A stretch of DNA of 64,000 bases from Candidatus Heimdallarchaeum aukensis (GCA_021513695.1 CP084166.1:352001-416000), one strand, 5' to 3'; numbered from the stretch's first letter, positions 12,344-41,855 are shown. Program-made: numbers and translations. The notes: generated from the letters alone by a model not told the origin.

Positions 12344-12356
12344 TTTCTCCCCGATG

Positions 12357-14040: not shown

Positions 14041-14098
14041 GTGTAAAATCAAGAATTTTTTGCAAAAAAAATATATACATTGATTACTAGTACATTTT

Positions 14099-14602: not shown

Positions 14603-14603
14603 A

Positions 14604-14636: not shown

Positions 14637-14676
14637 ATTCAATAAAAGTTAAAATATTAGATTTGAATCTCTTTTT

Positions 14677-15822: not shown

Positions 15823-15891
15823 GCACTGAGATTAGGGTTTACAAATGTTATTCATTTGTAATAATTTTTTCCTCTTTCACATCATTTATAA

Positions 15892-17877: not shown

Positions 17878-17889
17878 TTTATTCCTTTT

Positions 17890-18954
17890 TTATTTTTTTA
17901 TTACCTTTTTTAATTGATCAAGAGTTAAAACTCCTTCACTAGTGATATAACCCTTTATTAGCTCTGCTGGAGTGATGTCAAAAGCATAATTTAATACTGG
18001 AGATTTTTCATTAGAAATAAGAATTCTTTTCTCCATTGATGTTACAAACTTTACTTCTTCTTCGTCTCTTTCTTCAATAACTATATCACTAGCTTTTCTT
18101 CCTGATAAGTCAATTGTGGACCACGGTAAAGCTACAAAGAAATCTATTCCAAAATATTTTGCTGAAATAGCTAAAGATAATGTACCTATTTTATTAGCAA
18201 TTGTCCCATCTTGTAAACATCTATCAGCTCCAACGATTATCTTATCAATTTCTCCTTTTGACATAAGAAAAGCTGCAGAATTATCAGTAATAATTGAATG
18301 TTCAATTCCTGCTTCATAAAGTTCCCAAGCAGTTATTCTAGCTCCTTGAAGTCTTGGACGAGTTTCATCTACAATCACTCTTACTTTTTTATTTTTGGAA
18401 TGAGCAACATAAATAGGTGCTAGAGCAGTGCCATAATCCACTGTGGCAGGAGCTCCTGCATTACAATGAGTTAAGATTGTATCTCCATTCTTAATTATTT
18501 TTTCTCCTTGTATTCCAATATTTTTACATTCATCTATTACTTTTTCTCTTAAAGAATGAGCTTTGTTCAAAACATTTTCTACTGATAAATTTGTATTTAT
18601 TGCTTCTTCTAGAATTATTCGTGCAAAATTTTCTAAATCTACTGCTGTAGGACGGGAAGAAATTAAAGTGCTGTAACTTGCTTTAAGAAATTCTATCTGT
18701 TTTTCTTGTCGCTTGAATTTACTTAATGCTTGAATTGCAGCAAATACCATACCATAAGCAGCAGTAACACCTATTGCTGGAGCTCCTCTGACTACCATGT
18801 TTTTAATAGCTTCGCTAACATCTTTCACACTATGGTATTCATTGAATTTTACATCCCAAGGTAATAACCTTTGATCTAGTAAGACCAATGAATTATTTTG
18901 ACTATTCCAAAAAACACTTGTCACATTTTTCAACTTTCTACTCTTTATCTGCAT
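17890..18954 (-). CDS. mtnA: eIF-2B alpha/beta/delta-like isomerase: methylthioribose-1-phosphate isomerase (MtnA) or ribose-1,5-bisphosphate isomerase
   Basis: N-terminal LLDQRLLPW ... VRGAPAIGVTAAYGM and the Rossmann-like C-terminal part are typical of the MtnA/e2b2 family. The start is probably the internal Met (MQIKSRK) rather than the track start at 18993. Confidence 0.75.
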   Translation of the reverse strand: MQIKSRKLKNVTSVFWNSQNNSLVLLDQRLLPWDVKFNEYHSVKDVSEAIKNMVVRGAPAIGVTAAYGMVFAAIQALSKFKRQEKQIEFLKASYSTLISSRPTAVDLENFARIILEEAINTNLSVENVLNKAHSLREKVIDECKNIGIQGEKIIKNGDTILTHCNAGAPATVDYGTALAPIYVAHSKNKKVRVIVDETRPRLQGARITAWELYEAGIEHSIITDNSAAFLMSKGEIDKIIVGADRCLQDGTIANKIGTLSLAISAKYFGIDFFVALPWSTIDLSGRKASDIVIEERDEEEVKFVTSMEKRILISNEKSPVLNYAFDITPAELIKGYITSEGVLTLDQLKKVIKK

Positions 18955-19005
18955 ACTTAGAAAAAAGAAAGAAAGCAATAAAAATCTATGCAAAAAAAAT
19001 CGGAA

Positions 19006-19869
19006 TTATTTTTCTCTTTCTTTAATATATTCTCTTAAAGCTTGAACTACGGGTAAAGAGTGAGTGTTTTTATTGTTTCCTAAATTTTTATAGGTTGAAT
19101 TCTTTATTAATTTGGCTATTTCTTTAGTTATTTTCGCATCATGCATTTTATCTGCTTCTGCAGCTATTAATAGAACTTCACTTTTTACATTAGCATAAGT
19201 ATCCCACCATTTAGGAAGAGCTAAAGGTTTGCCAAATTTTTTCCATTTTCTACCTTGAGCTTCATTTAAGACTCTGATATACTTTGCTGCTTGCTCTGGT
19301 GATTCAGATTTTGCTCTTTTAATCCAAATTTTAAGAAGAGGTTTTAAAACATTAAAACTCCAGAAAGGGACAATTGGCACAATATATCTCGTTAAAGGAG
19401 GTAAATCAAATCTTGCAGGAGGAGCAATCAAGACAGAAAATAATGGGTTATATTTGTTATTAGCTAATCCATGTGCAATTACAGTAGCACCAAAACAAGA
19501 GCCAAAAAGGATAGTTTTGTTTTGATCAAGTTCTTTAAGATTAATGATCTCTTTTAGATCATCACTCATTCTATCCATTCCTGTCTGAGACTTCTTTGGA
19601 ATGATACTAGACCCTTTTTCTCTGCTTTCTATGTATAAAACATTAAAGTCTTTACTGAGTTCCATTAAAACTTCATCCCAACCTAAGACTACAGAACCCC
19701 ATCCAGCAAAAAGAACTATATTGTAAGTTTTTTCTGTTTCATTGTCAACTTTAGTAGATAGAACTCTTAATTGGGCTCCGTCTGACATTGTTAGGTATTC
19801 TTCTGTTGCGAATTTCTCATATTCTGCTTGTTGTAGCTCCAGAAAATTTTTCACACTTTCAGCTGCCAT
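19006..19869 (-). CDS. Alpha/beta-hydrolase-fold protein with a Cys nucleophile (G-S-C-F-G elbow); paralog 1 of 3
   Basis: 287 aa. Nucleophile elbow FGSCFGATVIAHG. Candidate acid/His in EADKMHD and THSLP. Clear paralogy with 30349..31278 and 31445..32329 (shared Y-x-E-x-x-M-S-D-G-A-x-L N-terminus). Lies 50 nt upstream of mtnA on the same strand. Confidence 0.6.
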   Translation of the reverse strand: MAAESVKNFLELQQAEYEKFATEEYLTMSDGAQLRVLSTKVDNETEKTYNIVLFAGWGSVVLGWDEVLMELSKDFNVLYIESREKGSSIIPKKSQTGMDRMSDDLKEIINLKELDQNKTILFGSCFGATVIAHGLANNKYNPLFSVLIAPPARFDLPPLTRYIVPIVPFWSFNVLKPLLKIWIKRAKSESPEQAAKYIRVLNEAQGRKWKKFGKPLALPKWWDTYANVKSEVLLIAAEADKMHDAKITKEIAKLIKNSTYKNLGNNKNTHSLPVVQALREYIKEREK

Positions 19870-19955
19870 TGTTTTAAAAAAAAATAGCTTATTTAAAAAA
19901 GTAACTAAAATTCAAAAAAGAAATAAATAGGAAAAATGCAAGAAATAGTACTCGA

Positions 19956-20675
19956 TTAATTAGGAAGAAAAAGATTAGCAATCCAAATATAAATCAAAAC
20001 AAAAGAAATTGAAAACCAAATAATAATTCTAAACCAATTTTCTTTTCTAAATTCAACCTTTTTATAATGTGATCTTTTAGATAATCCAAAACCCTTGAAA
20101 TATAAAGCTTGAGCCAAAAATTCAGAACGATAAAGAACAGAGGCTATAAAAATAGCTAGAATTTTAGGTAACCATTTGAAAATTGTTCCCTTTGTTTCTC
20201 TTAATCTTATTGTTTCAAAAGTTTCTTCTGCGTCTTTAATTATTCGTGGAGAAAGAGTTAACACTAAAGAAGGAAGTAAAGCAATCTTAGAGGGAAAATG
20301 TAAATTTTCTAGTGCTCTTGTTAATTCTGAAGGATTAGTTTTGGAAAAAAAGAAAACAAAACTTAATCCCCCATTTAGAATTCTAGTTATTGTTAAAATA
20401 CTGAAATACAATCCTGAAAAAATATAGGTCATTCCTCCTAAAAGAATTAATAGAGGAAATATAGCAATAATAATATTAAAAGCGCCGATACTATTTCCAA
20501 AAATGATGTTTTCGAACACGATTATTGCCAACATTATTACTTGAACAGCAATATTTGAAGAGAAAACGAATGAAAACTGAATTATTAAAATAATTATGCT
20601 TAGTATAGGGTTGAATATAATACCTTCAGATTGAAAAATTATTCCGCTGTAAATTCTGTTTAATAAGTAAGACAT
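19956..20675 (-). CDS. ecfT: ECF transporter transmembrane (T) component, EcfT/CbiQ family
   Basis: 239 aa, multi-TM. Immediately downstream of the duplicated ECF ATPase on the same strand. Confidence 0.55.
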   Translation of the reverse strand: MSYLLNRIYSGIIFQSEGIIFNPILSIIILIIQFSFVFSSNIAVQVIMLAIIVFENIIFGNSIGAFNIIIAIFPLLILLGGMTYIFSGLYFSILTITRILNGGLSFVFFFSKTNPSELTRALENLHFPSKIALLPSLVLTLSPRIIKDAEETFETIRLRETKGTIFKWLPKILAIFIASVLYRSEFLAQALYFKGFGLSKRSHYKKVEFRKENWFRIIIWFSISFVLIYIWIANLFLPN

Positions 20676-22397
20676 CTAGTTTCCTCCTTGATCAAAAACC
20701 CCATTAAGAGCTAATTCTGAAATTTCTTCAACAGTAATGATATGGGGAAGTTCAGCTTTGAAACTTTCTTCTAATTCTAAAATAAACCTAACTAACTGAT
20801 TAGGAACGAGTTTTGTTTTTTTCTCTAATTCGTATAAAATTTTCTGTGGAGTTCCCTTTAGTGCGATTTTTCTCTCTTCAATTACAACTAATTTATCAAA
20901 AAAAGGTAGAATACGTTGATCGTTTGTAGCAATAATTACAATCTTTCCTTCTTTTTTAGCTCTTTCAATACAAGTGTATAATAGATTTCTCCCTTCTTCG
21001 TCTAATCCAATTGTAGGTTCATCCAGAAGGATGAATCGTTTGTCAGATAGAAAAGCTGTATATATTGCCAGTATTCTTCTTTCTCCTTCACTCATATGAT
21101 AAAGCTTTCTAGAGATTAAGTGCCAAAAACCGAATTTAGATAACTCTTCTTTAACAATATCCAAATCTACTTTTGTTTTCTTTATATCATCTAGAGGAGT
21201 AGGGCCCATTAAAAATAATTTAGCATTTTCAGGAACATAAGCTACATACTTACTTGTGTGTCTTAAACCCTTTATCTTGTTTCCAAATAGGAGTACTTTA
21301 CCTTTATTTGGTTTGAGAATACCAGAAATCAACCGAAGTAGAGTACTCTTCCCACTTCCATTTATTCCGAGCAACCCTATAATGTTTCCAGGATAGATTT
21401 CGAAATTTATATTTTCCAAAATAGGTCTCCTGTTATACCTAAACGAAACATCTTCAACGTTTAGAACGATTTCATGTTTATCTTTTTTTAATTCTTCTTT
21501 CTTCTCTTGAAATCTATTTTTTAGCTTTAGAATCTTCTCCACTAGTTCTTTTTTCCCTTCTTCTTTTTCTAAACTTTGTTCAACTTTAAGCTTTTCTGCA
21601 AGCAAATAAATTTCTGGTAAGTCAACTCCAGTTAGTTCAGATATTAATTCATGTGATTTTCCTGATTTAATAATTGTCCCATTCTCTATGAAATATATCT
21701 TATCTGCTAAAGAAAACAAATAATCTAATCTATGCTCAAAAACTATAACAAGATGGCCCTTTTCTGCTAGTTTCTTTAATGTTTCTGCAATTTTTATCTC
21801 TGAAGCGGGGTCTATTCTAGCCATTGGCTCATCCAATACTAGAATTTTGGGATAGCAAATTAAAGATAAACAGAGTTCAACTCTTTGAATTTCTCCAGAA
21901 CTAAGTTCAGTCATTATTCTATTTTTTAGATGATCAACTTCTGTGACTTTTACAGTTTCTGAAATTCTTTCGTGAATGATTTCACGCGGAAAAGATAGAT
22001 TTTCCAAAGGAAAAGCTATTTCTTCTTCTACAAGCATGTTAGTTATAAAATCTGAAGGATACTGTGGAATGTAGCCTACAGTTCTGATAAGTTCAAATCT
22101 TGTTAAATTTTCAGTTGGTACTCCATTAATTAGTATTTTTCCTTTAATTTCTGCAGGAATAAACTTAGGAATCAGACCCAAAATAGCTTGTGCAAGAGTG
22201 CTCTTTCCACTTCCACTTTTACCAGCGAAAACAACAAGCTGTCCCTTCTCTAAACTAAAACTAATATTTTTAAGATTCCACTTGCTACTTGTTTTATATT
22301 TAACTGAAAGATTTTCTAACTCTAGCACTCGCACCAACCCAATAAATAAAGAAAGAAAAAAAAAGATTTGTATAGGGCTAGATTTCGTCTTCTTCAT
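20676..22397 (-). CDS. ecfA: Fused tandem ABC ATPase (EcfA-EcfA') of an ECF-type transporter
   Basis: Two complete ABC cassettes: Walker A GKSGSGKST and GINGSGKST, signatures LSSGEIQRV and MSEGERRIL, Walker B LVLDEP and ILLDEP. The start was set to the internal Met (MKKTKSS) to reduce overlap with the upstream S component; the ORF-track start is 22457. Confidence 0.85.
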   Translation of the reverse strand: MKKTKSSPIQIFFFLSLFIGLVRVLELENLSVKYKTSSKWNLKNISFSLEKGQLVVFAGKSGSGKSTLAQAILGLIPKFIPAEIKGKILINGVPTENLTRFELIRTVGYIPQYPSDFITNMLVEEEIAFPLENLSFPREIIHERISETVKVTEVDHLKNRIMTELSSGEIQRVELCLSLICYPKILVLDEPMARIDPASEIKIAETLKKLAEKGHLVIVFEHRLDYLFSLADKIYFIENGTIIKSGKSHELISELTGVDLPEIYLLAEKLKVEQSLEKEEGKKELVEKILKLKNRFQEKKEELKKDKHEIVLNVEDVSFRYNRRPILENINFEIYPGNIIGLLGINGSGKSTLLRLISGILKPNKGKVLLFGNKIKGLRHTSKYVAYVPENAKLFLMGPTPLDDIKKTKVDLDIVKEELSKFGFWHLISRKLYHMSEGERRILAIYTAFLSDKRFILLDEPTIGLDEEGRNLLYTCIERAKKEGKIVIIATNDQRILPFFDKLVVIEERKIALKGTPQKILYELEKKTKLVPNQLVRFILELEESFKAELPHIITVEEISELALNGVFDQGGN

Positions 22398-23145
22398 TTG
22401 AGAGGAAGCCAATTTTATGTAGGTAAGAAACAATTGGAATTGCAATTGCTGTTCCAAAAACTACTTGTCCAAAGTTAAATGGGATCTCTACTAAAGCAGC
22501 GCCTATACCAAAAAGTAACCACTCATAAAGGAAATAACCTACAACGATGATTAATCCACCAGAAACGCAAGAAATAATCATCTTTCCTTTCTCTCCCCAC
22601 AATAGGGTTGAAACCCAGATGAGGGTTATTAACAGTAAAGAAATAATTAATATTACATATCCAGGAAATGTAAAAGTTAATTCCAGTCCTCCAAGTCCAA
22701 GAAGAGAAAGACCTCCCTCGATATTATTGTTAAACAACAATGCGGATGCAGTTATCATAAGAGCTGAAATTATAGAAACAAATGTTATCTGAATCTTTTT
22801 TGAAAATTTGCGTAAGAGCATAAATAGTAACCCAACAGTAAAACCTTCAGCTGATTTTAAAACGAATGTTGCCGGAGCAAAGATAGCATATCCTAAAACT
22901 ATATCCGCAAGAGCAGCTCCTACTCCTCCAGCGATCATCCCTACTATGGGCCCACCTACTAATGCTGCTACGTAGATAAATGCTTCTCCTAAATTAAAAA
23001 AACCTTCAGAAGTTAATGCTAAATAGAAAATAGATGTTGCTAGAAATACTAATGTTGTAAAAGAAGCTGTTGTTGCTAACCCTCTTAAACTCGCTATTTC
23101 TGCAAAATCTTTTTTTATTGAATACCTCTCTATCATTTTTATCAC
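22378..23145 (-). CDS. ECF transporter substrate-specific (S) component-like membrane protein
   Basis: 255 aa. About 6 TM helices rich in Gly/Ala. First gene of the ECF operon. Substrate unknown. Confidence 0.5.
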   Translation of the reverse strand: MIKMIERYSIKKDFAEIASLRGLATTASFTTLVFLATSIFYLALTSEGFFNLGEAFIYVAALVGGPIVGMIAGGVGAALADIVLGYAIFAPATFVLKSAEGFTVGLLFMLLRKFSKKIQITFVSIISALMITASALLFNNNIEGGLSLLGLGGLELTFTFPGYVILIISLLLITLIWVSTLLWGEKGKMIISCVSGGLIIVVGYFLYEWLLFGIGAALVEIPFNFGQVVFGTAIAIPIVSYLHKIGFLSNEEDEI

Positions 23146-23227
23146 TATTCAAGTTTCAACTTTAATATTCAAGATTCAACTTGTATACTCCTTTAAAAAA
23201 TTTGTGGTATATCGTTAATGAGAAAAA

Positions 23228-24031
23228 CTAATCATATCGTTGTTTTTCAGTAGGAAAAGAGCCACTTTTCACTTCTTCATGATATTTTTTTACAGCATTA
23301 GAAATTATTTCCTTGATGTCAACATATTGCTTAATAAACTTGGGTTTAACTTGAAAATTCAACCCTAAAATATCATCAATTACTAAAACTTGACCGTCAC
23401 AATATTCTCCTGCTCCAATTCCAATAGTAGGTATGGTTAAACTTTCAGTTATTTTCTTTGCAAGTTTCCATGGAATGGATTCCAAAACTATAGCAAAAAC
23501 TCCGGCTTCTTCTAGTAGTTGTGCATCTTCAAGAAGAATCTGTGCTTGTTTTTCTTCTCTTCCTTGAACTTTGAATCCACCAAAAATATTAACATACGTA
23601 GGAGTAAGTCCAATATGTCCTAACACAGGGATACCAATTCGAATAATTTTTTTAATATCTTCAATTCTTTCCCTTCCCCCTTCAAGTTTTACTGCTTCTG
23701 CATTTCCCTCTTTAACTAGTTTATGGGCATTTCTAGCTGTTTCAGAGGGATTAATACCATATGTTCCAAAAGGGAGATCTCCAATCAGTAAAGCTCTATT
23801 TACTGCTCTTGATACAGCTTGAGTGAGCATAATAGTATTTTCTAAAGTTACTTTCAAGGTGTTATTATGACCTAAAATTGTCATTCCTAGCGAATCTCCA
23901 ACAAGAATAGAATCAATTCCTGCATCATCAACAATTTTAGCTATTGGATATGTATAAGATGTAAGCATAGTTATCTTTTCTTTGTCTTCTTTCATTCTCT
24001 GAAAATCTTTTACTGTAACTTTATCTTGCAT
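23228..24031 (-). CDS. panB: 3-methyl-2-oxobutanoate hydroxymethyltransferase (ketopantoate hydroxymethyltransferase)
   Basis: 267 aa. PanB motifs: LTSYTYPIAKIVDDAGIDSILVGDSLGMT ... HIGLTPT ... GGFKVQGR. Confidence 0.85.
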   Translation of the reverse strand: MQDKVTVKDFQRMKEDKEKITMLTSYTYPIAKIVDDAGIDSILVGDSLGMTILGHNNTLKVTLENTIMLTQAVSRAVNRALLIGDLPFGTYGINPSETARNAHKLVKEGNAEAVKLEGGRERIEDIKKIIRIGIPVLGHIGLTPTYVNIFGGFKVQGREEKQAQILLEDAQLLEEAGVFAIVLESIPWKLAKKITESLTIPTIGIGAGEYCDGQVLVIDDILGLNFQVKPKFIKQYVDIKEIISNAVKKYHEEVKSGSFPTEKQRYD

Positions 24032-24100
24032 TATTATCAGTCTACGATTTGAATTCTACTATAAATTTTTTCGCTGTATCGAGAAATTTATAGAAAAAAA

Positions 24101-24817
24101 CTATTGTCTCTCTTTACTAAGAAGTAGATAGTTTATTATCATTAGAAACAAAGCAAAAGCTTGATATCCAAGGATATAAGGTAAAATAATAAAATCCTCT
24201 GCAATGATTATTCCAGTAGTAAAAAGAGCCATTGCTAAAATCAAAAATAGAAAAAACCACAGAATGATATTTCTATTTTCTTTCTTTAAACCCATTGCTA
24301 TCCAAAGCATGAGAAAAGAAAGAATAAAGGGTTGGTAAAAACCATTAATTGGCGAAATGGCTAAACTAGGAGCAAAGATAGCAACTAAATAAAAAAGAGA
24401 ACTAAAGAAGAATAAAAGAATAAGAGAGAGTTTTCTTACAATTCTAGGATAGGTATTTAGTTTTTTTTTCCAATTGACTTTTCTTGAAAATTTGTGAATT
24501 ATCTTGTTACTATCCTTAAAAAAACTGTATTTTTCTATGTTATTCATTTTTAAATTATTAATTATAGACAAAATTAAAGGAAGAATAAAAAGAGTGTAAG
24601 GTACATAAATAAGATAAGGGAACCAGTAAATCGCTGGGTCTTTTATTTCTTGGTCAACAGTATCCAAGTGAGATAACACATAACCAGATTGAACAATTGT
24701 ACCAATGGTTATTAATATTAAACTCACAAACATAAAGTAAAGCAAGCTTATCCATATTTTATAACGTTGTTCAGTGAAGAGAACTTTTATTCCAGACCTT
24801 TTTCTTTCCAGATTCAT
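24101..24817 (-). CDS. Hypothetical integral membrane protein
   Basis: 238 aa with 6-7 hydrophobic helices. Lies between the PPS gene and panB on the same strand. Confidence 0.5.
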   Translation of the reverse strand: MNLERKRSGIKVLFTEQRYKIWISLLYFMFVSLILITIGTIVQSGYVLSHLDTVDQEIKDPAIYWFPYLIYVPYTLFILPLILSIINNLKMNNIEKYSFFKDSNKIIHKFSRKVNWKKKLNTYPRIVRKLSLILLFFFSSLFYLVAIFAPSLAISPINGFYQPFILSFLMLWIAMGLKKENRNIILWFFLFLILAMALFTTGIIIAEDFIILPYILGYQAFALFLMIINYLLLSKERQ

Positions 24818-24861
24818 TATTTTACTTTACTTTTTTAAATATATATAGTTTCTTAATTTTT

Positions 24862-25647
24862 TTACTTTGAATCTTTGAATTTTTTTAATTTCTCAGCATC
24901 GAAACTCTTTAATCTTTCACTTATAAAAGTAAGCGATGTGTGTAATGAATCAAAATTTTCAAAATTGCTGATTATTTCTTGAAGATTTAGAGAATCTTCT
25001 TTTTTCATCTCTTGAGCCATTTTTATCATTTCAGGAATTGCTCTAATCACATTATTTACAATAGTTATATTTGACCATAAAGAAGTGCGAGAAAGAGGAT
25101 TTAGATCAATACTTATTACAGTTTTACTTAACTTTCTTAGAGCCATGGTTCTATCTCCATCTTCCAATGGTACCATTACAACATCAGCAGAAAAGATACC
25201 TCTTTTATCTACAATTCTTCTTAAATGTGAAAGTTCTTTTATTTCTGTTTGATAATTAGGATCTAAACCGTATATTTTTTCTGCACCGTTTTCTCTTAAT
25301 ACTTTTTCTAACGCTTTCATCCTTTTTTCGCTGCGATAGAATAAATTAACCTCTAACTTTGAATTTGTTTCTTCTGCTAGTTTTATTATTTCTCTTGGAC
25401 ATAAAGCTGCGACATTTCCATTAACGCTAATAACAGGATTTTTCGCTAAAAGAAGGCTTGCGACTGCAGCTTTTTCCTGTTCTAAAGCAAAAGAAGGAGT
25501 TTTTTCTCCTATTAAGTAATCAAATGCTTCTCCTCTACCATGTGCAATTAATCCAGCTTCTGCGACAATGTTAGAGTGCATTCCATCAATAATTAATTCT
25601 CTGACTCTAAGTGATTCTGCTCTCGGATGATCTTCAGGAATCTTCAT
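24862..25647 (-). CDS. Archaeal 4-phosphopantoate--beta-alanine ligase (phosphopantothenate synthetase, DUF137 family)
   Basis: 261 aa. The N-terminus IPEDHPRAESLRVRELIIDGMHSNIVAEAGLIAHGRGEAFDYLIGEKT matches the conserved start of archaeal PPS (MJ0209/TK1686 family) as I recall it. Adjacent to panB. Confidence 0.65.
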   Translation of the reverse strand: MKIPEDHPRAESLRVRELIIDGMHSNIVAEAGLIAHGRGEAFDYLIGEKTPSFALEQEKAAVASLLLAKNPVISVNGNVAALCPREIIKLAEETNSKLEVNLFYRSEKRMKALEKVLRENGAEKIYGLDPNYQTEIKELSHLRRIVDKRGIFSADVVMVPLEDGDRTMALRKLSKTVISIDLNPLSRTSLWSNITIVNNVIRAIPEMIKMAQEMKKEDSLNLQEIISNFENFDSLHTSLTFISERLKSFDAEKLKKFKDSK

Positions 25648-25738
25648 TAAAATAAGGACTTTTTTTCATATTTATATTGATTTAGATAAAATAAGAAAAT
25701 AGAAAAAGAAAATAAAAAGAAAATAAAAAAAGGAGAAT

Positions 25739-27916
25739 TTAATTTTTTCTTCTTCTGAATAAGAAAGTTGTCATAAATACAGTACTCAAAACAATGAATG
25801 CTCCAAAACCAGGAGTATTAGTAGGTTGAGTGTCAGTTGGTTCTGTTGGTTCTGTTGGTTCTGTAGGCTCTGTAGGCTCTATGGGTTGAGGATTAGGTTC
25901 AAAGTATGTTTTGAATTCTGGATCGTGGTTTATTTCTTTTCCATCCCAAACAGGATAGTTGATTATAATCAAATCTTTTCTGTATAACCAGTTTAGAGTA
26001 GTTTCTTGCTTTTCTGAATCTGTCATTACTTGACCTATATCATCGCTTTCACTTTCAAATTCTCCTACTTCTGTTGAATTAGAAAATGTTTTCTGTCCTG
26101 TTAAATAAACCAAATTTAGCACTGTAGTATTTGTATTATGTGTTGAACCTTCTATCGAATATTCTAGTTTCGAACCACCTAAACTAATGTCAATAAGCGC
26201 TGTGTCATCACTGTATTCTATTGATACCTCTGTTGTGGTTGTTGGAACAGAAGAACCTATTCCTTCTTCATCAGTTTTAGCCGTTACATCTTCTACTGTT
26301 AGCATTTCACTTACTTGATAAGTCGCAAGTGACAGACCCTCCATGCTATTCTTAAGTGTGGAATCTGTTATTCCTCCAAAGACACTTGTTGTAGCTAAAC
26401 TTGCTTCTCCAGTATCTAAGTTAACTGTATAAGAATAATCATAACTTATATCCATTGGATCTGTTGTTACTGTAGTATCTGAAGTGTTATACCATAAAAC
26501 TGGATAATCATTATAATCAATACCCCAACTAAAAGTAACACTACCATCATCGTTTTCTACAGGATCAGTCCATCTAGGAGTATAGTTAATTTCAGCGTCT
26601 ATATCTCCTACTTCTTCCACCACATACTTTTCTCCAACTTCAGTATTGTTAATGTTGATATTGTTATATATTCCTGCACCAGGAGCATAAACAATACTAG
26701 TGTAATTGTTGGTAATGTTATAAGTTACAAAGTATTCATTCTTGTGAGCTTCTGGAAAACCGATATACTTAACCCAATCAATAGGATCATGCTTTACATT
26801 TCCACTATCGTCCAAATATACATCAAGTTGATTGTTGTAATTTCCATCATAGTAAGCTATCATTCTAGAAGGATTAAGTGTTCCCCATACAGCAAAATGG
26901 TCAATAGTTGCATTAGTTGATCTGCTAACAAAAGCTTGTACAACAGCTTGAGCTGTAGATCTACTTTGTAATCGCCCATAAGCTGTAAATTCAAAGCTTT
27001 GGTGACCTTGATCTGCAATTAGTTTAGGTAACATATTTCTTGGATAATAATTATAAGGTACATTTCCTCCATAGTCGTTAAATTCTGGGTCATCTGAAGT
27101 TATTGTAACATTGTGGAGATAAAATCTAAAGAACCCTATTTCCATCTTAAAGACTTCTGCATATTCAATACTAGATTTAATACAACCAAAGTAATTTAGA
27201 GCGATATTACTTCCATCCGTTATAATTACATTATAACCAGTCATTGTTGCATTATATTCAAAACCATAGGCCATATATCCACCTATTATATTTCTTGCAT
27301 AAAAAGTAGAGTTCACTGTTACTTGGAAAGTCTGTGTTGTTATCTGAATAAACATTGCTACAGGTATAATAGCTACTAAATGATAAAACTTGAATAGACC
27401 ATATTCGTCAACACTGTCGATAAATTCTATAAGAGTGCTGTTTACAAAGGATTGGCCAAGATACTCTTTTTCAGTTGATAGAAAAAGTACTTCATTTGGT
27501 AGATCTGAAGTTACATTTAGACTAACATTATAATGCGCACTTCTAGCCCAAATGCGTGGCATAAGATCGTTGTTAACGTAATCTACCATAGTTTCATTAT
27601 TTACTAAAACCTTAAACTCTGATTCACTTCCATTTCCCCAAACACGGAAGTCAACTATTAAATAAATAGCATCTACTAACTCATAACCAGTCACTAAATC
27701 TAAAGGACCAGTATACATCGTAGTTTCTTTATATTCTTCATCTACAAGCATATAATCAAAATAACTATAAGAGCCTGATTCACTGAAAGTTTTTACTTCG
27801 TGAGAATAGTAGATACCATTAATTTCATTAGTTTCTCCCACTGAAGGGGGAGTTAGCGAAACAACCGAGAAAATAACCAAAGATATAACTAAAAAAGTTA
27901 ATTTCTGTTTGTTCAT
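25739..27916 (-). CDS. Secreted surface protein with a (PTE)n linker and a PGF-CTERM archaeosortase (ArtA) sorting signal
   Basis: 725 aa. N-terminal signal peptide. The C-terminus reads ...PTEPTEPTEPTEPTDTQPTNTPGFGAFIVLSTVFMTTFLFRRRKN: PGF, then a hydrophobic helix, then a basic tail. Confidence 0.7.
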   Translation of the reverse strand: MNKQKLTFLVISLVIFSVVSLTPPSVGETNEINGIYYSHEVKTFSESGSYSYFDYMLVDEEYKETTMYTGPLDLVTGYELVDAIYLIVDFRVWGNGSESEFKVLVNNETMVDYVNNDLMPRIWARSAHYNVSLNVTSDLPNEVLFLSTEKEYLGQSFVNSTLIEFIDSVDEYGLFKFYHLVAIIPVAMFIQITTQTFQVTVNSTFYARNIIGGYMAYGFEYNATMTGYNVIITDGSNIALNYFGCIKSSIEYAEVFKMEIGFFRFYLHNVTITSDDPEFNDYGGNVPYNYYPRNMLPKLIADQGHQSFEFTAYGRLQSRSTAQAVVQAFVSRSTNATIDHFAVWGTLNPSRMIAYYDGNYNNQLDVYLDDSGNVKHDPIDWVKYIGFPEAHKNEYFVTYNITNNYTSIVYAPGAGIYNNININNTEVGEKYVVEEVGDIDAEINYTPRWTDPVENDDGSVTFSWGIDYNDYPVLWYNTSDTTVTTDPMDISYDYSYTVNLDTGEASLATTSVFGGITDSTLKNSMEGLSLATYQVSEMLTVEDVTAKTDEEGIGSSVPTTTTEVSIEYSDDTALIDISLGGSKLEYSIEGSTHNTNTTVLNLVYLTGQKTFSNSTEVGEFESESDDIGQVMTDSEKQETTLNWLYRKDLIIINYPVWDGKEINHDPEFKTYFEPNPQPIEPTEPTEPTEPTEPTDTQPTNTPGFGAFIVLSTVFMTTFLFRRRKN
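25838..25880 (-). repeat. Tandem 9-nt repeats (ggttctgtt/ggctctgta) encoding the PTEPTEPTEPT linker
   Basis: Direct reading: ggttctgttggttctgttggttctgtaggctctgtaggctct. Confidence 0.8.
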
Positions 27917-28112
27917 ATATTATTATTTGCATCAAAATATAAAAGTATATTTTTCGAATTTTCTCGAATAATTTAAAATCATTGTTTTTTCTTTTATAAC
28001 CAATCTAACAATTTCTAAATAGAATGTAGATATTTTGTTAAAAAAAATTAATAACTTTCTTGTACTATTTATATTTCTTAAAATTTATATAACATAATGT
28101 TTGTTCTTTCCC

Positions 28113-29696
28113 ATGAGTAATGAAAAAGGCAGTAAAATTAATCATTTGGTCGGAATAATACTTTACATTGGCATATTTACTTATTTTATCACTTCCTTAG
28201 TTTCTCTTATATTGCATTTTTCTGATTTAAAAGTTCATGGTTTTATCTTAAATCTATTTGCCTTACTTTTTGAAACACTTGGTCCTTTATATGCTGTTTA
28301 TTTTATGATACAATTAATTGACGGTATTCTAAATGTTGGAGAAATTAGTTATAATATTGATAAGATGACAGAATTTCCTAAAGTAACAGTTATTGTACCT
28401 ATTCACAATGTGAATCCTGCTGTTTTAAGGGATACATTATTGGGTTTCAAAAACCAAGATTACCCCAATTTTGAACTGTGGGTTGGTGATGACAGTACAG
28501 ATGTTAAATTACGTGAAGAATGTGAAAAAATTACAAAGGAAACAGGTTTTATTTACTTTTATAGAGAAAATGATCGTTTCAAAGCACATATGGTTAATAT
28601 GATTTTGGAACAACCTCAAGTCAAAGAGTCAAAATATGTTGCCTTTTTCGATGTCGATCACATTCCTGAACCAAATATTTTGAAAAAATTTGTAGCTATA
28701 TTAGAAGAGCATCCTGAATTCGTTTTTGTTCAAGGTAAATTCGGCTTTAGGAATGCGAAGAACTATCTTCATGTGTGGGAAGCTATGTCTCTCACACAGA
28801 TGTTTGCTAGCCAGAATGCAAGAAGAAAAACTGGTAATGTTCTCTTCTGTGGGAGTACAGCTTGTTTTAGAAGGGATATACTCAAAGGTTTACCAGAAGG
28901 GACTTTAACAGAGGATTATGATTTAACTATTAGACTCGCTTCTGAAGGTTACAGAGGATATTGGCTAGATGAGATAAGTTCAATGAGTTTGGTACCGGAA
29001 AATATAGGACATCAAATGTCACAGCTTAATAGATGGATGACTGGGCAAGCTGGAGCATTATCAGACCATGTTGGTAAGTTATTTAGAAGCAAAATGACTT
29101 TCAAACAAGCAATTGACTTTGTAGTTTCTTCTACTGTTGTGCTTGTAGCTACTTCATTCTATTTTTTAGGTATCTTTTATGCTCTGATTTATGCATTTAA
29201 AATACCTATCTATCGTGCATTAGGACTAGATGCTTTTTCGCTAGTAATAATGCCTATATTGACCTTTATTATTTACATCTCCACTCTAACAGCGACAACA
29301 ATATATACTGCAAAATCTGGTACTTATCCTTTAAGATGGTGGCACGTACCCTTCTTTTTGGCTTTTGGAGGGATGACAGCTCCTTTCTTAGTTTTTCCAG
29401 TAATTAAAGGACTATTTAGAAAAAATAAAATAGTTCCAGGAAAAACAAAATGGAATAAACAAGTACCTCTGATTCCATTGTCTATCTTCTTTTCATTACT
29501 TGGAATGGTTTTTATAGGTCTAACAACATCTTCAGTTTTAGATTTCTTATCAATTACAAATTGGTACGGATATAATTATTTCTTTATTTTATTTGGAGTA
29601 ATAGGCATTACGCTCGTGTTTGCTTTTCCATTTATAGTGATTTCTAAAATGATGTTTAAATCACAACACTATGAAGAAGTAATGATATATCATTAA
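28113..29696 (+). CDS. Processive family-2 glycosyltransferase (cellulose/chitin/hyaluronan-synthase-like) with an integrated membrane domain
   Basis: GT2 motifs: TVIVPIHNV, DDS, FDVDHIP (DxD), TEDYDLTIR, QLNRW (the Q-x-x-R-W motif of processive beta-glycosyltransferases). Two N-terminal and about six C-terminal TM helices. The ORF track used a TTG at 28101; I prefer the ATG at 28113. Confidence 0.8.
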   Translation: MSNEKGSKINHLVGIILYIGIFTYFITSLVSLILHFSDLKVHGFILNLFALLFETLGPLYAVYFMIQLIDGILNVGEISYNIDKMTEFPKVTVIVPIHNVNPAVLRDTLLGFKNQDYPNFELWVGDDSTDVKLREECEKITKETGFIYFYRENDRFKAHMVNMILEQPQVKESKYVAFFDVDHIPEPNILKKFVAILEEHPEFVFVQGKFGFRNAKNYLHVWEAMSLTQMFASQNARRKTGNVLFCGSTACFRRDILKGLPEGTLTEDYDLTIRLASEGYRGYWLDEISSMSLVPENIGHQMSQLNRWMTGQAGALSDHVGKLFRSKMTFKQAIDFVVSSTVVLVATSFYFLGIFYALIYAFKIPIYRALGLDAFSLVIMPILTFIIYISTLTATTIYTAKSGTYPLRWWHVPFFLAFGGMTAPFLVFPVIKGLFRKNKIVPGKTKWNKQVPLIPLSIFFSLLGMVFIGLTTSSVLDFLSITNWYGYNYFFILFGVIGITLVFAFPFIVISKMMFKSQHYEEVMIYH

Positions 29697-29707
29697 TTAA
29701 AAAAAAA

Positions 29708-30277
29708 TTATCTTCTTCTTTTTCTTTTACTCTTTTTACTCTTTTTAATAGTTCTAAAAGCAATAATTAAAGACAGAATAGTAAAGATCAATCCAACAAT
29801 GGCATAAATAGGAAAGTTAGTGTCATAGTCACTTCCATATCGATCAATAAAGGTAAGATAAGAGACAAAACCCATAATGGTTGTACCTAAAATAAGTATG
29901 TCTGCAATGAATGCACCAATAGCTCCATGAATGAATAATAAAAGTAAAGCAGCTAGCAATAAATAAGGAATGATCAAAGTAAGTAATCCTTCTGTAGATA
30001 AATTGTTGTCGATATCTAAGAAACTTATTTCAACATCACTCACATAAAGAATGGCAAATAACTTTGTTCTATCAGTTAAAGCATCTCCTGCATATTCCCA
30101 TCTTCCATCTTCACTAAACCAGTTAAAGTTGTAAAAAGCTATTTCAAATTCATTATCATGAACAGATACTGCTCCTAGAGGAGTCATCATATATGTTGTA
30201 TCAAAACTATCAACATGATGAATACCAATAGGCATAATAAAAAGTATCAAAATAAAAACTACATTAAGAGCTTTCAT
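29708..30277 (-). CDS. Hypothetical membrane protein with a highly basic C-terminal tail
   Basis: 189 aa. N-terminal signal/anchor, then an extracytoplasmic segment, then two TM helices, ending KKSKKSKRKRRR. Confidence 0.45.
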   Translation of the reverse strand: MKALNVVFILILFIMPIGIHHVDSFDTTYMMTPLGAVSVHDNEFEIAFYNFNWFSEDGRWEYAGDALTDRTKLFAILYVSDVEISFLDIDNNLSTEGLLTLIIPYLLLAALLLLFIHGAIGAFIADILILGTTIMGFVSYLTFIDRYGSDYDTNFPIYAIVGLIFTILSLIIAFRTIKKSKKSKRKRRR

Positions 30278-30348
30278 ACGGGAAGGAAAGTGACATCATT
30301 CTTATTTTTTTCTAGAAACGTGAAACTAAACAAAAAAAGATAATAAAA

Positions 30349-31278
30349 TTAGTGAGAAATAGATTGTTCTACCTCAATCATTCCTGCAAGCTCTTCGACA
30401 TTTTCGATTATTTTCTTTGCAAATTCTTTTGAACCTGGATTGTGATGCATAAAGTAATAATTGGGAACTTCTACATAGGTACCGTTTTTCATATTTTCAG
30501 CTATTTTAACTGCATCTCCTCCTTTATGCATCCTATCCTTCATTGTACCATATAGCCATGAGCGTACATCAACCCTAATGTAATCATCGTAACAATTGTG
30601 ATTTATTATTGGGAAGCTCTTTTTCCAGTTTGAACCTTTTCCATTATCAAAGAGTTCAAAATAGGTTTTTCTCTGAATACCTTTAGGGATAGTCATCTTT
30701 ATCCATAATTTAAGTAAGGGTTTTGCTATGAAATTGTAAGTAAAGTCTGCTGGAAAATAAGCAAGAGGGATAAGTTGTCTAGGTATTGGAAAGCGTATTG
30801 TTGGGCTCATAAAAATAGACCCTCTAGGTTTAACAAATCCTTCTGCAATAGCGTGGGCATTAACTGCTGCACCAAAACAAGGACCTAACAAAACAGTTTT
30901 TTCAAGATCTAAACCATAATAGTCTATAGCTTCTTTTACATCAAGAGCATGTCTATCCATCGTTCCAGTGTGTTTCTTGTTCATTTTAGAAAAACGTTTT
31001 TCTCTAGTTTCTAGAACATATAAATCAAAATATTTGTACAATTCATCCCACGTGTCATTCCAACTGTAAGGAGCTGTTGACCAACCTGGAACAAAAAACA
31101 AACTAAACTTGGATGGATGCTTACCTTTTTTTGTATAATAAGAATAAAGTTCTGCTCCATCACTCATTGTGATAAATTCTTTTTTAGCTTCATTGTAGAA
31201 GAGTGCTTTTTGTGTATAATTTTTTGAAAAACTACTGTATATGTTCTCCTCCTCTTCTTCATCAATGGTATCATTCAT
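30349..31278 (-). CDS. Alpha/beta-hydrolase-fold protein with a Cys nucleophile (G-P-C-F-G); paralog 2 of 3
   Basis: 309 aa. Elbow LLGPCFGAAVNAHA. DRMH and MHHNPG motifs. Paralogous to 19006..19869 and 31445..32329. Confidence 0.6.
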   Translation of the reverse strand: MNDTIDEEEEENIYSSFSKNYTQKALFYNEAKKEFITMSDGAELYSYYTKKGKHPSKFSLFFVPGWSTAPYSWNDTWDELYKYFDLYVLETREKRFSKMNKKHTGTMDRHALDVKEAIDYYGLDLEKTVLLGPCFGAAVNAHAIAEGFVKPRGSIFMSPTIRFPIPRQLIPLAYFPADFTYNFIAKPLLKLWIKMTIPKGIQRKTYFELFDNGKGSNWKKSFPIINHNCYDDYIRVDVRSWLYGTMKDRMHKGGDAVKIAENMKNGTYVEVPNYYFMHHNPGSKEFAKKIIENVEELAGMIEVEQSISH

Positions 31279-31444
31279 TTTAGTCTGTTTGTAAAAAAAA
31301 CAGTTGCTTAAAAATTTTATCGGTAGTACAAAAATAAAATTACAATATTTTATAAATGTGTTTAGAAATTCATAAAAAAAGAAAACTTAGTCTATGTCTG
31401 TTCTAATTTAGAAAAGAAAAAGTAGAAAACAAAAATAAACAAGA

Positions 31445-32329
31445 TTAATTAGCTGTAGAAATTATTTTTTCAATGAAATCTTTAATAATTTGAGCATATT
31501 CTTTAGCTCCAGGATTATAATGAGCAAAATAGTATGAAGGAGTATCAACATATTCACCTTTAGGAATCATTTCAGCAACTTGTTTAGCTATAACTGCTTC
31601 ATGCATTCTGTCTTCAGTAGCTCCTGTAATCAAAGCAGGACAGTCAACATGAGGATAGTCAACAAAGGAGTCGTGCCAAGCAACAGCTAAAAACTTTTTC
31701 CAACGCATTCCAGTAGCGTTTCTAATATTGTTGATGTAAATATCTCTCTGCTTTCCTTTAGGCATGGACAAACTCAACCAAATAACAAGTAAAGGTTTAC
31801 CGATAATACCCATAAAAAATGCAGGGAGAACATAAGCTAAAGGAAGCAAAGCTTTGGGAAGGAAAAATTTCTTAGGGGGACCATTTAGAATAACACCTAA
31901 AGGTTCTATCTTTTTAGTTGCTACAGCATGTGAAATAATAGAAGCTCCAATACATGGCCCCATAAGAAAAGTCTTTTTTTCATCAAGATTGAAATAATCC
32001 ATAGCTTCTTTAACATCTAAAGATAAACGATCCATATTTGCTTTGTGTCCCCACTTAACTTTAGCACTTTTCGTCTCTCTTTTCTCTTGTACATAAAGAT
32101 TGTAGTCTTTATAGAGATGACTCCAAAGATCATTCCAAGAAAAAGGACCGGTGTTAAATCCAGGAACGAAAAAAATAGTGTAATCTTTATTCTTGTTAGT
32201 GTAATAGTGGAGTAACTCAGCACCATCAGACATTGGAACATATTCTTTTTTTGCTTCATCATAAAAGGATGTATCTTGAATATAATCTTCTGGAAATTTG
32301 TGCATGTTAATCAAGAGTAAATGAAGCAA
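31445..32329 (-). CDS. Alpha/beta-hydrolase-fold protein with a Cys nucleophile (G-P-C-I-G); paralog 3 of 3
   Basis: 294 aa. Elbow LMGPCIGASIISHA. EDRMHE and AHYNPG motifs. Tandem to paralog 2. Confidence 0.6.
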   Translation of the reverse strand: MLHLLLINMHKFPEDYIQDTSFYDEAKKEYVPMSDGAELLHYYTNKNKDYTIFFVPGFNTGPFSWNDLWSHLYKDYNLYVQEKRETKSAKVKWGHKANMDRLSLDVKEAMDYFNLDEKKTFLMGPCIGASIISHAVATKKIEPLGVILNGPPKKFFLPKALLPLAYVLPAFFMGIIGKPLLVIWLSLSMPKGKQRDIYINNIRNATGMRWKKFLAVAWHDSFVDYPHVDCPALITGATEDRMHEAVIAKQVAEMIPKGEYVDTPSYYFAHYNPGAKEYAQIIKDFIEKIISTAN

Positions 32330-38525: not shown

Positions 38526-38651
38526 TCCCTCTTTTACTCATAATTTTTTAAAAGAAATCTTAATTTCTCTTTTTTTATCATTTTTTTATCTATAAGAATC
38601 ATTTAAAGCTGAATAAGAAGATTTTTTTATTACGCTTCTATTGTTGTTTTA

Positions 38652-41819: not shown

Positions 41820-41855
41820 AAAAGAACTATATGAAAATAAGTTTTTAACCTTTGC

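What the first reader, a model, noticed from the sequence alone, without database searches (positions are those of the whole stretch)
19006..32329. Three paralogous alpha/beta hydrolases carrying a cysteine at the nucleophile elbow (G-x-C-x-G)
ORFs 19006..19869, 30349..31278 and 31445..32329 are clearly paralogous. They share the N-terminal Y-x-E-A-K-K-E-[FY]-x-x-M-S-D-G-A-E-L block, a nucleophile elbow with Cys in place of Ser (GSCFG, GPCFG, GPCIG), a D-[KR]-M-H motif and a C-terminal aromatic-H-x-x-P-G motif. That is a Cys-Asp-His triad arrangement like dienelactone hydrolase.

Two are tandem. The third sits 50 nt upstream of mtnA (methionine salvage), on the same strand and probably co-transcribed. 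A three-member Cys-hydrolase family in one 64-kb window suggests a lineage-specific expansion with an unknown substrate. The mtnA linkage hints at thioester or thioether chemistry.
Basis: partly seen in the sequence, partly recalled or inferred. Interest (0 to 1): 0.5.

Follow-up and report, generated by a model that had tools for sequence, protein, structure and literature searches.

The report
Cysteine-nucleophile hydrolase paralogs in Heimdallarchaeum
Three related genes in this Asgard-archaeon fragment encode alpha/beta-fold hydrolases whose catalytic serine has become a cysteine; one of them is always found just upstream of the methionine-salvage gene mtnA in related species, but what it acts on is unknown.

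Summary
Three minus-strand ORFs (19006-19869, 30349-31278, 31445-32329) are paralogs (32-45% identity, E 1e-44 to 1e-92). All have Cys at the nucleophile elbow, plus the Asp and His of a triad at the expected positions in confident AlphaFold models.

They are not dienelactone hydrolases. They are capped Abhydrolase_1/6-type enzymes of an uncharacterised family with a near-invariant E-[ST]-R-E-K motif. The family is expanded in Heimdallarchaeia and also occurs in sediment bacteria.

Ser is the ancestral and commonest nucleophile; Cys arose at least twice. Codons suggest a TCN (Ser) to TGT (Cys) to AGT (Ser) path.

The mtnA link is real. In 18 other Heimdallarchaeial contigs, 17 of them GTDB species-representative genomes, the Cys-bearing ortholog of the first gene lies at most about 76 nt upstream of mtnA on the same strand. 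None of 31 Ser paralogs does.

Bacterial Ser relatives pair instead with an XylB-like FGGY sugar kinase (50 of 72 testable loci).

My best reading is active Cys-His-Asp (thio)ester or lactone hydrolases, with the first one coupled to MtnA. The substrate is not known. This is a new variant of a known kind, of moderate interest.

The parts
19006..19869 (-). ABH1: 287-aa alpha/beta hydrolase. Proposed triad is C125 (codon 19495-19497), D240 (in EADKMH, 19141-19158) and H270 (in NKNTHS, 19057-19074). Family motif ESREK lies at 19615-19629.
18955..19005 (-). 51-nt spacer between the ABH1 stop and the first ATG of mtnA. It is T-rich, with a run of eight T directly after the stop.
   Evidence: Sequence read. 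Equivalent spacers are at most about 76 nt in the 18 other Heimdallarchaeial contigs (ORF ends against tblastn or called mtnA starts).
17890..18954 (-). mtnA (S-methyl-5-thioribose-1-phosphate isomerase). The likely ATG start is at 18954; the longest ORF runs to a TTG at 18993.
   Evidence: PF01008 E 5.6e-75. TIGR00512 368.6 bits against a cutoff of 279. The ortholog in L050 is called at 353 aa.
15892..17877 (+). 661-aa acidic surface or membrane-anchored protein, convergent with mtnA. It belongs to the conserved ABH-mtnA-surface-protein block that is inverted in this genus.
   Evidence: tblastn hits downstream of mtnA, on the opposite strand, in 15 loci.
13291..14602 (+). Two genes: a 249-aa signal-anchored protein and a 167-aa LOR-like protein. 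In most other Heimdallarchaeial genomes they lie directly upstream of the ABH1 ortholog on its strand.
   Evidence: Synteny clusters. Pfam LOR E 1.1e-4. Translations.
30349..31278 (-). ABH2: 309-aa paralog. C134 (codon 30877-30879), D248 and H251 (in MKDRMH, 30526-30543), H278 (in YYFMHH, 30442-30459).
   Evidence: AlphaFold model pLDDT 88.9 with C134 at the junction of strand 128-133 and helix 134-145. Foldseek returns the same esterase set as for ABH1.
31445..32329 (-). ABH3: paralog in tandem with ABH2. It is 294 aa from the TTG; the likely ATG start is at 32305, giving 286 aa. C126 (codon 31952-31954), TEDRMH at 31601-31618, YYFAHY at 31517-31534. Its family motif is the variant E-K-R-E-T.
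   Evidence: The close homolog P0001 starts at the internal Met.
32553..32900 (-). 115-aa ArsR/MarR-like winged-helix regulator directly upstream of ABH3 on the same strand.
   Evidence: Pfam HTH_5 E 4.7e-6.
37083..39692 (+). An MFS/ATG22-like transporter (37083-38525) and a MarR_2/DUF7343 regulator (38652-39692). The regulator follows the ABH2/3-type genes in four other Heimdallarchaeial contigs, and in three of them the transporter does too. Here the pair is about 5 kb away and on the other strand.
   Evidence: Pfam. Contexts of P0003 (L048 and L049), P0005 and P0010.

Best explanation
**What they are (shown).** The three genes encode soluble, catalytically competent alpha/beta-fold hydrolases with a helical cap. 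They belong to an uncharacterised family marked by E-[ST]-R-E-K after strand 4, D-K-x-H after strand 7 and a His after strand 8. In these three the ancestral Ser nucleophile has been replaced by Cys.

**How they most likely work (inferred).**
- A Cys-thiolate/His-imidazolium pair, oriented by Asp, attacks a carbonyl carbon.
- This forms a thioester acyl-enzyme, stabilised by the backbone NH groups of the residue after Cys and of the residue after the conserved Gly of the P/A-G-W motif.
- Water, or possibly another acceptor, then resolves the intermediate.
- The likely substrates are small soluble esters, thioesters or lactones.

**ABH1.** It forms a conserved and probably co-transcribed pair with mtnA in Heimdallarchaeia. 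It most likely acts in the same salvage or detoxification network for SAM by-products. Candidates are a lactone or thiolactone such as homoserine lactone or homocysteine thiolactone, or a derivative of the MtnA product.

**ABH2 and ABH3.** These are a recent tandem pair from a second, independently Cys-bearing clade. That clade travels with a MarR/DUF7343 regulator, usually together with an MFS transporter, and has unknown substrates.
For: **Fold and triad placement.**
- The AlphaFold models have pLDDT 90.3 and 88.9.
- Cys lies at the strand-5/helix junction, Asp after strand 7 and His after strand 8.
- The Cys aligns on the catalytic Ser of PhaZ.
- The Asp aligns on the Asp-Asp pair just after the equivalent strand of RsbQ; from my own knowledge the second of these is RsbQ's catalytic Asp.

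**Purifying selection on the triad.**
- D240 and H270 are at least 90% conserved and H243 is invariant across 60 divergent members.
- Cys is retained in 19 mtnA-linked orthologs, the window's included, that are only 43-93% identical to each other (median 57%).

**Active-site co-adaptation.** Position 151, just after strand 6, is Pro in 49 of 54 Cys members but in only 3 of 106 Ser members. It is Met in 13 of the 14 other Cys-bearing representatives, a distant mostly G-x-C-W-G group.

**Gene pairing.**
- All 17 Cys orthologs with downstream DNA in the GTDB species-representative genomes, plus L055 and the window, are followed by mtnA on the same strand.
- None of 31 Ser paralogs in the same set of loci is.
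- The ABH-mtnA pair stayed together through an inversion in Heimdallarchaeum and a rearrangement in L055.

**Family-level link to sugar or sugar-acid metabolism.** 50 of 72 testable bacterial loci have an XylB/GntK-like FGGY kinase directly upstream.

**Nearest characterised sequence models.**
- They are hydrolases of lactones and esters: PcaD enol-lactonase at E 4e-9, far below its cutoff.
Against: - No substrate or activity has been tested.
- I could not measure triad distances, because model coordinates are not exposed.
- The region around ABH1-mtnA is a broader conserved syntenic block. It includes genes with no evident metabolic link: MTD, a signal-anchored protein, a LOR-like protein and a surface protein. 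Adjacency may therefore partly reflect shared ancestry.
- A run of eight T follows the ABH1 stop and could act as an archaeal terminator.
- No alpha/beta hydrolase is part of any methionine-salvage variant described in the review I searched (PMC6302742).
- Engineered Ser-to-Cys exchanges in hydrolases usually destroy activity (abstract of PMC6642262). Full hydrolytic competence of the Cys forms therefore cannot be assumed.
Confidence: 0.55

Rival explanations
1. These are generic esterase paralogs, and the mtnA adjacency is inherited synteny with no functional coupling. The Ser-to-Cys change is a nearly neutral or mildly adaptive tweak, for example for low-oxygen sulfidic habitats, with no change of reaction.
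For: - The conserved block extends to functionally unrelated neighbours: MTD, a signal-anchored protein, a LOR-like protein and a surface protein.
- Each genome holds several paralogs in varied contexts.
- The spacer is T-rich.
- No known methionine-salvage route uses an alpha/beta hydrolase.
Against: - The ABH-mtnA pair is the most stable element of the block: 18 of 18 loci, against 13-16 for the other genes.
- It survived an inversion and a rearrangement intact.
- Spacers are uniformly short.
- The association is specific to the Cys clade (0 of 31 Ser paralogs).
Confidence: 0.28
2. The Cys forms are acyltransferases or synthases rather than hydrolases. They would form a thioester acyl-enzyme from an acyl-CoA or acyl-pantetheine donor and pass the acyl group to an acceptor, in the manner of PHA synthase or Cys-type thioesterase domains.
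For: - A Cys nucleophile in this fold is typical of PHA synthase (PMC5509742, listed).
- ABH1 sits inside a CoA-biosynthesis cluster in this window: an MfnA-like decarboxylase, panB and PPS.
- A clade-B Cys member in another contig lies next to panE, a GHMP kinase, panB and PPS.
Against: - No PhaC model matched at E up to 1. The only PHA-related NCBIfam hit is the intracellular depolymerase at 20.7 bits against a cutoff of 300.
- The proteins are about 290 aa and have no extra domain.
- Close Ser paralogs and bacterial Ser relatives share the same architecture.
- The link to CoA genes is not conserved for ABH1 outside this genus.
Confidence: 0.12
3. They are members of the dienelactone hydrolase family (carboxymethylenebutenolidase) acting on dienelactones.
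For: They share a Cys-His-Asp triad in an alpha/beta fold and a G-x-C-x-G elbow.
Against: - Pfam DLH scores E 0.16 and 12 bits against a cutoff of 21, on a short stretch of ABH1 only.
- An approximately 80-residue cap is present. From my own knowledge, DLH lacks one.
- The family's ancestral nucleophile is Ser.
Confidence: 0.03
4. They are non-catalytic pseudoenzymes, or redox or ligand sensors of the RsbQ/KAI2 type, in which the Cys is not a nucleophile.
For: RsbQ and KAI2 are among the closest structures. ABH2/3-type genes travel with MarR-like regulators.
Against: All triad positions are conserved in every Cys clade. RsbQ and KAI2 are themselves hydrolases that use their triads. This point comes from my own knowledge.
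Confidence: 0.02

Closest known systems
Capped Abhydrolase_1/6-type esterases and lactonases (RsbQ 1wom, PcaD enol-lactonase 2xua, P. fluorescens aryl esterase 1va4, B. thuringiensis PhaZ 8ynv, PA hydrolase 3om8)
   Different: Sequence identity is only 13-20%. All of these use Ser. The usual D-x-R-G-x-G after strand 4 is replaced by E-[ST]-R-E-K. None of their curated models is passed: PcaD TIGR02427 scores 36 bits against a cutoff of 256.
Dienelactone hydrolase (Pfam PF01738)
   Same: It has a Cys-His-Asp triad on an alpha/beta hydrolase scaffold and hydrolyses a lactone. It therefore probably 'works like' these proteins at the level of covalent thioester catalysis.
   Different: These proteins are not members. 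The Pfam score is below the cutoff and no entry described as a dienelactone hydrolase is among the top structural matches. A cap domain is present here, and the Cys is derived from Ser within the family.
PHA synthase PhaC (lipase-box G-x-C-x-G-G)
   Same: It has a Cys nucleophile at the elbow of an alpha/beta fold and forms a thioester acyl-enzyme.
   Different: No PhaC model matched at E up to 1. These proteins are about 290 aa rather than 355 aa or more (from my own knowledge). They lack the second Gly of the box.
BPHL / valacyclovir hydrolase (PDB 2ocg), a homocysteine thiolactonase
   Different: BPHL uses Ser and shares 16% identity. There is no evidence that ABH1 acts on this substrate.
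Bacterial Ser-type members of the same E-T-R-E-K family (Calditrichota, Marinimicrobia, KSB1)
   Same: They share the family motifs and length. HMMER E-values reach about 1e-50 to 1e-30 against the Heimdall profile.
   Different: All listed ones have Ser, encoded by TCN codons. They pair with an FGGY kinase, not with mtnA. They are also uncharacterised.

Membership tests
Alpha/beta hydrolase fold superfamily (Abhydrolase_1/6 class) | Core beta-sheet with the nucleophile on a sharp turn between strand 5 and the following helix, the acid after strand 7 and the His after strand 8. | tested here: met
Alpha/beta hydrolase fold superfamily (Abhydrolase_1/6 class) | Pfam Abhydrolase_1 or Abhydrolase_6 score above the gathering cutoff. 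| tested here: inconclusive
   ABH1 passes Abhydrolase_1 (31.2 bits against 25.8). ABH2 (18.1 against 26.3) and ABH3 (no hit) fall below the cutoffs. Their membership rests on homology to ABH1 (E 1e-44) and on the fold.
Dienelactone hydrolase (PF01738) | Match to the DLH profile above the gathering score. | tested here: not met
   ABH1 scores E 0.16 and 12 bits against a cutoff of 21. ABH2 and ABH3 give no hit.
Dienelactone hydrolase (PF01738) | Cys-His-Asp triad with Cys at the elbow. | tested here: met
   C125/D240/H270, with equivalents in ABH2 and ABH3.
Dienelactone hydrolase (PF01738) | Closest structural neighbours are DLH structures, with a compact fold and no large cap. | tested here: not met
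PHA synthase (PhaC) | Match to PhaC models; G-x-C-x-G-G box; extra N-terminal region. | tested here: not met
   No PhaC family appears in the Pfam or NCBIfam output at E up to 1. The elbows GSCFGA, GPCFGA and GPCIGA lack the second Gly. Length is 287-309 aa.
3-oxoadipate enol-lactonase PcaD (TIGR02427) | Score above the equivalog cutoff of 255.85 bits. | tested here: not met
   36.1, 14.1 and 14.7 bits for ABH1, ABH2 and ABH3.
Unnamed 'E-T-R-E-K' alpha/beta hydrolase family (defined here) | E-[ST]-R-E-K after strand 4, D-K-x-H after strand 7 and a His after strand 8 (N-x-x-T-H-S in most members). Length about 280-300 aa. | tested here: met
   ABH1 has ESREK, DKMH and NKNTHS. ABH2 has ETREK, DRMH and YYFMHH. 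ABH3 has the variant EKRET, then DRMH and YYFAHY. The profile finds 129 cluster representatives at E up to 1e-30 and 317 at E up to 1e-10 among 1.84 billion. The motif is near-invariant in the 150 listed.
MtnA (S-methyl-5-thioribose-1-phosphate isomerase), for the neighbouring gene | TIGR00512 equivalog score above 279 bits. | tested here: met
   368.6 bits. The ribose-1,5-bisphosphate isomerase model TIGR00511 scores 182 bits against a cutoff of 314.

The most novel reading that the evidence does not exclude
The mtnA-linked Cys clade could be an undescribed enzyme of SAM by-product salvage in Heimdallarchaeia. It might hydrolyse homoserine lactone or homocysteine thiolactone, or process a derivative of methylthioribulose-1-phosphate without oxygen. 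In addition, the family could be a living example of Brenner's 'two serines' route. In that route a catalytic Ser encoded by TCN passes through a functional Cys (TGT) to reach Ser encoded by AGT.
Probability: 0.2. Interest if true: 0.7.

Novelty: new variant of a known kind. Interest (0 to 1): 0.45.

Why it matters
Natural alpha/beta hydrolases with a Cys nucleophile are few, and engineered Ser-to-Cys swaps usually kill activity. A family in which close paralogs carry Ser (TCN), Cys (TGT) or Ser (AGT) at the same catalytic position is therefore useful. It offers a direct test bed for how triads tolerate nucleophile exchange and for the old question of how catalytic Ser codons switch class.

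The strict pairing of the Cys clade with mtnA in the archaea closest to eukaryotes points to an unassigned step around methylthioadenosine or SAM by-product metabolism in organisms where that pathway has not been described. The pairing of the bacterial relatives with an unassigned FGGY kinase gives a second handle on the family's chemistry.

Tried and rejected
- The 60-sequence family alignment was too divergent for the search for related loci. A 16-sequence alignment of the ABH1 clade worked.
- The AFDB Foldseek library was unavailable, so no named AFDB relatives were obtained.
- The first Biopython neighbour-joining run timed out. I replaced it with my own identity matrix. These trees have no bootstrap support.
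- Literature searches found no paper describing this family or an alpha/beta hydrolase in methionine salvage. I searched for Heimdallarchaeum with methionine salvage, Heimdallarchaeota with methylthioribose, and mtnA with hydrolase.
- I tested whether the conserved genes upstream of ABH1 orthologs could be missing methionine-salvage enzymes such as MtnB. The 249-aa protein has no Pfam match and looks signal-anchored and N-glycosylated. The 167-aa protein is LOR-like. I rejected the idea.
- I tested whether the FGGY kinase partner of the bacterial relatives is present near the Heimdallarchaeial genes or anywhere in the window. It is not.
- I considered DLH, PhaC and PcaD membership and rejected each on profile scores.
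- Promoter and terminator scanning was not attempted. At about 30% G+C, TATA-like and oligo-T matches are uninformative.


Full report
**What is in the window.**
- ABH1 is 19006-19869 (287 aa).
- ABH2 is 30349-31278 (309 aa).
- ABH3 is 31445-32329 (294 aa from a TTG). It probably starts at the internal ATG at 32305, as its close homolog P0001 does.

They are clear paralogs.
- ABH1 is 32-34% identical to the other two (E about 3e-44).
- ABH2 and ABH3 are 45% identical (E 1e-92).

Each has Cys in a G-x-C-x-G elbow, encoded by TGT at 19495-19497, 30877-30879 and 31952-31954. Each also has D-[KR]-M-H and a C-terminal His.

ABH1's stop codon lies 51 nt upstream of the first ATG of a gene that passes the MtnA equivalog model (368.6 bits, cutoff 279).

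**Source organism.**
The window has about 30% G+C. Its closest genome is Candidatus Heimdallarchaeum endolithica PR6. That genome shares the local gene order at 82-93% protein identity.

**Fold and active site.**
AlphaFold models built on family alignments are confident: pLDDT 90.3 for ABH1 and 88.9 for ABH2. Both show a canonical alpha/beta hydrolase core with an approximately 80-residue helical cap.
- The Cys lies exactly between strand 5 and the next helix.
- The Asp of D-K-M-H follows strand 7.
- The His follows strand 8.

In profile-to-PDB alignments the Cys falls on the catalytic Ser of PhaZ. The Asp falls on the Asp-Asp pair just after the equivalent strand of RsbQ; from my own knowledge the second of these is RsbQ's catalytic Asp. 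I could not measure side-chain distances, because model coordinates are not exposed.

**Family.**
A profile search of 5.8 billion proteins found 135 relatives. All the named ones are Heimdallarchaeaceae or Heimdallarchaeota.

An exhaustive HMMER search of 1.84 billion cluster representatives gave 129 hits at E up to 1e-30, 317 at E up to 1e-10 and 1159 at E up to 1e-3. The listed members share a near-invariant E-[ST]-R-E-K after strand 4. This replaces the usual D-x-R-G-x-G.

The more distant members are bacterial. The named ones are Calditrichota, Marinimicrobia and KSB1.

No curated Pfam or NCBIfam family other than the generic Abhydrolase models is passed. DLH, PhaC and PcaD membership all fail. 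I found no literature on this family.

**Cys is derived and recurrent.**
- Among the 152 sequences examined from the exhaustive search, 131 have Ser and 18 have Cys at the nucleophile column.
- A neighbour-joining tree roots in Ser and needs four Ser-to-Cys changes. Two Cys clades are well separated.
  - The G-S-C-x-G clade contains ABH1.
  - The G-[PT]-C-x-G clade contains ABH2 and ABH3.
- A further distant, mostly G-x-C-W-G group exists.
- Asp and His stay conserved in all Cys clades.
- Position 151, just after strand 6, is Pro in 49 of 54 Cys members but in only 3 of 106 Ser members. It is Met in 13 of the 14 other Cys-bearing representatives of that distant group. This suggests the active site adapted to the Cys, though it reflects only two or three independent events.

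Codons add a twist.
- Bacterial relatives use TCN for the Ser (78 of 78).
- Deep Heimdallarchaeial Ser clades use TCT or TCC.
- The Cys clades use TGT (a few TGC).
- The GSSFG/SSSFG clade, which is sister to the ABH1 Cys clade, uses AGT.

TCT and AGT are two steps apart, and TGT is the one-step intermediate between them. The pattern therefore fits TCN to TGT to AGT. This is the route Brenner proposed in 1988 for catalytic serines. I cite that from memory and did not check it.

The trees have no bootstrap support, so this is a lead rather than a result.

**The mtnA link.**
A pattern scan of one genome for each GTDB species returned 47 loci.
- Every G-S-C-x-G ortholog with enough downstream DNA is followed by mtnA on the same strand. 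That is 17 loci, plus the truncated L047. Spacers are at most about 26-56 nt.
- Two further Cys orthologs end at contig edges and could not be tested.
- None of the 31 Ser-type family genes in the same loci is near mtnA.
- A further Cys ortholog (P0014, L055) also precedes mtnA, with a 76-nt spacer.
- A separate small Cys clade (P0047) does not.
- The 19 linked orthologs, the window's included, are only 43-93% identical to each other (median 57%).

In most genomes the block reads MTD(-), a roughly 240-aa signal-anchored protein(+), a LOR-like protein(+), ABH(+), mtnA(+), a surface protein(-). In Heimdallarchaeum the ABH-mtnA-surface-protein segment is inverted as a unit. In L055 the pair persists while the flanks differ.

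The pair is thus the most stable element. However, the wider block contains genes with no evident metabolic connection. Inherited synteny therefore cannot be excluded as the reason for the adjacency. The run of eight T after the ABH1 stop also leaves co-transcription unproven.

**Other contexts.**
- ABH2/3-type genes in four other Heimdallarchaeial contigs are followed by a MarR_2/DUF7343 regulator, and in three of them an MFS/ATG22-like transporter lies between. In the window the same transporter-regulator pair lies about 5 kb away at 37083-39692.
- One such contig also has panE, a GHMP kinase, panB and PPS next door.
- In the window ABH1 sits among CoA-biosynthesis genes: an MfnA-like decarboxylase, panB, PPS and an ECF transporter. 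That placement is genus-specific.
- The bacterial Ser relatives have their own strong partner. An XylB/GntK-like FGGY kinase of 528-530 aa, below every curated cutoff, lies directly upstream in 50 of 72 testable metagenome loci and in four further contigs. No such kinase is near the archaeal genes.

**Interpretation.**
Shown:
- These are homologous capped alpha/beta hydrolases with Cys at the canonical nucleophile position.
- The triad is conserved.
- The family is uncharacterised and expanded in Heimdallarchaeia.
- The Cys is derived.
- The ABH1 orthogroup is tightly and specifically adjacent to mtnA.

Inferred:
- They perform covalent catalysis through a thioester acyl-enzyme.
- Their substrates are small esters, thioesters or lactones.
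- ABH1 is functionally coupled to MtnA.

The lactone or thiolactone idea rests on three points.
- PcaD-type lactonases are the nearest characterised models, although far below their cutoff.
- The alpha/beta hydrolase BPHL is a homocysteine thiolactonase (PMC4198189).
- A lactonase plus sugar-acid kinase reading of the bacterial pair is plausible.

None of this has been tested.

**Verdict.**
This is a new variant of a known kind: a Cys-triad alpha/beta hydrolase that arose by recurrent nucleophile switching inside an unnamed family. It has a conserved but unexplained partnership with mtnA. Interest is moderate.

Noticed in passing
window 47096-57958: There is a head-to-tail tandem duplication of 5.43 kb at 99.9% identity (47096-52527 and 52528-57958). 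Each copy carries a Metallophos (Mre11-like) gene, an AAA_23/SMC_N (Rad50-like) gene and a 456-aa ORF. I did not resolve whether it is a real recent duplication or an assembly artefact.
   Followed up: partly
window 14677-25647: CoA and pantothenate biosynthesis genes are clustered around ABH1. They are an MfnA-like PLP decarboxylase (14677-15822), ECF transporter S, A and T components (19956-23145), panB (23228-24031) and archaeal phosphopantothenate synthetase (24862-25647). Another Heimdallarchaeial contig has panE, a GHMP kinase, panB and PPS directly beside an ABH2/3-type Cys gene.
   Followed up: partly
L001-L058 and the window, nucleophile codon (window 19495-19497, 30877-30879, 31952-31954): Codon classes at the catalytic position follow the clades. 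Bacterial relatives use TCN (78 of 78). Deep archaeal Ser clades use TCT or TCC. Cys clades use TGT. The sister GSSFG/SSSFG clade uses AGT. This fits a Ser(TCN) to Cys(TGT) to Ser(AGT) path.
   Followed up: partly
ABH1 residue 151 (window 19417-19419) and the same column in the family: Pro at this position after strand 6 co-occurs with the Cys nucleophile: 49 of 54 Cys members against 3 of 106 Ser members. It is Met in 13 of the 14 other Cys-bearing representatives, a distant mostly G-x-C-W-G group. I could not check its spatial proximity to the nucleophile.
   Followed up: partly
L051, L056-L058, L059-L138 (bacterial and metagenome loci): Ser-type bacterial members of the family lie directly downstream of an unassigned XylB/GntK-like FGGY kinase of 528-530 aa. 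This holds in 50 of 72 testable loci, with spacers of 12-381 nt. It is a conserved gene pair of unknown function.
   Followed up: yes
window 13291-19869 compared with L010-L031: The ABH1-mtnA-surface-protein segment is inverted in Heimdallarchaeum (the window and PR6) relative to the order in most other Heimdallarchaeial genomes. There the order is signal-anchored protein, LOR-like protein, ABH, mtnA. In the window an MfnA-like decarboxylase gene lies at the junction.
   Followed up: yes
window 37083-47255 compared with L048: The gene order is an MFS/ATG22 transporter, a MarR_2/DUF7343 regulator, an FAD oxidoreductase and then, further on, a HerA/FtsK-like ATPase. It matches the order downstream of the ABH2/3-type gene P0003 in another Heimdallarchaeial contig.
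   Followed up: partly
window 7271-13193: There is a sugar-utilisation cluster: a GH2 glycosidase (7271-9034), an MFS sugar transporter (9036-10316) and a GH127 beta-L-arabinofuranosidase (10343-12403). Next to it is a methylene-tetrahydromethanopterin dehydrogenase (MTD) gene (12357-13193).
   Followed up: no
L053 435-2301; contigs of P0005 and P0010: Family genes are often in tandem in other Heimdallarchaeial genomes. In L053 a TCC-Ser paralog sits directly upstream of the TGT-Cys paralog P0047. In the P0005 and P0010 contigs, unannotated ORFs of 286-295 aa precede the Cys gene, but their DNA could not be fetched to confirm that they are family members.
   Followed up: partly
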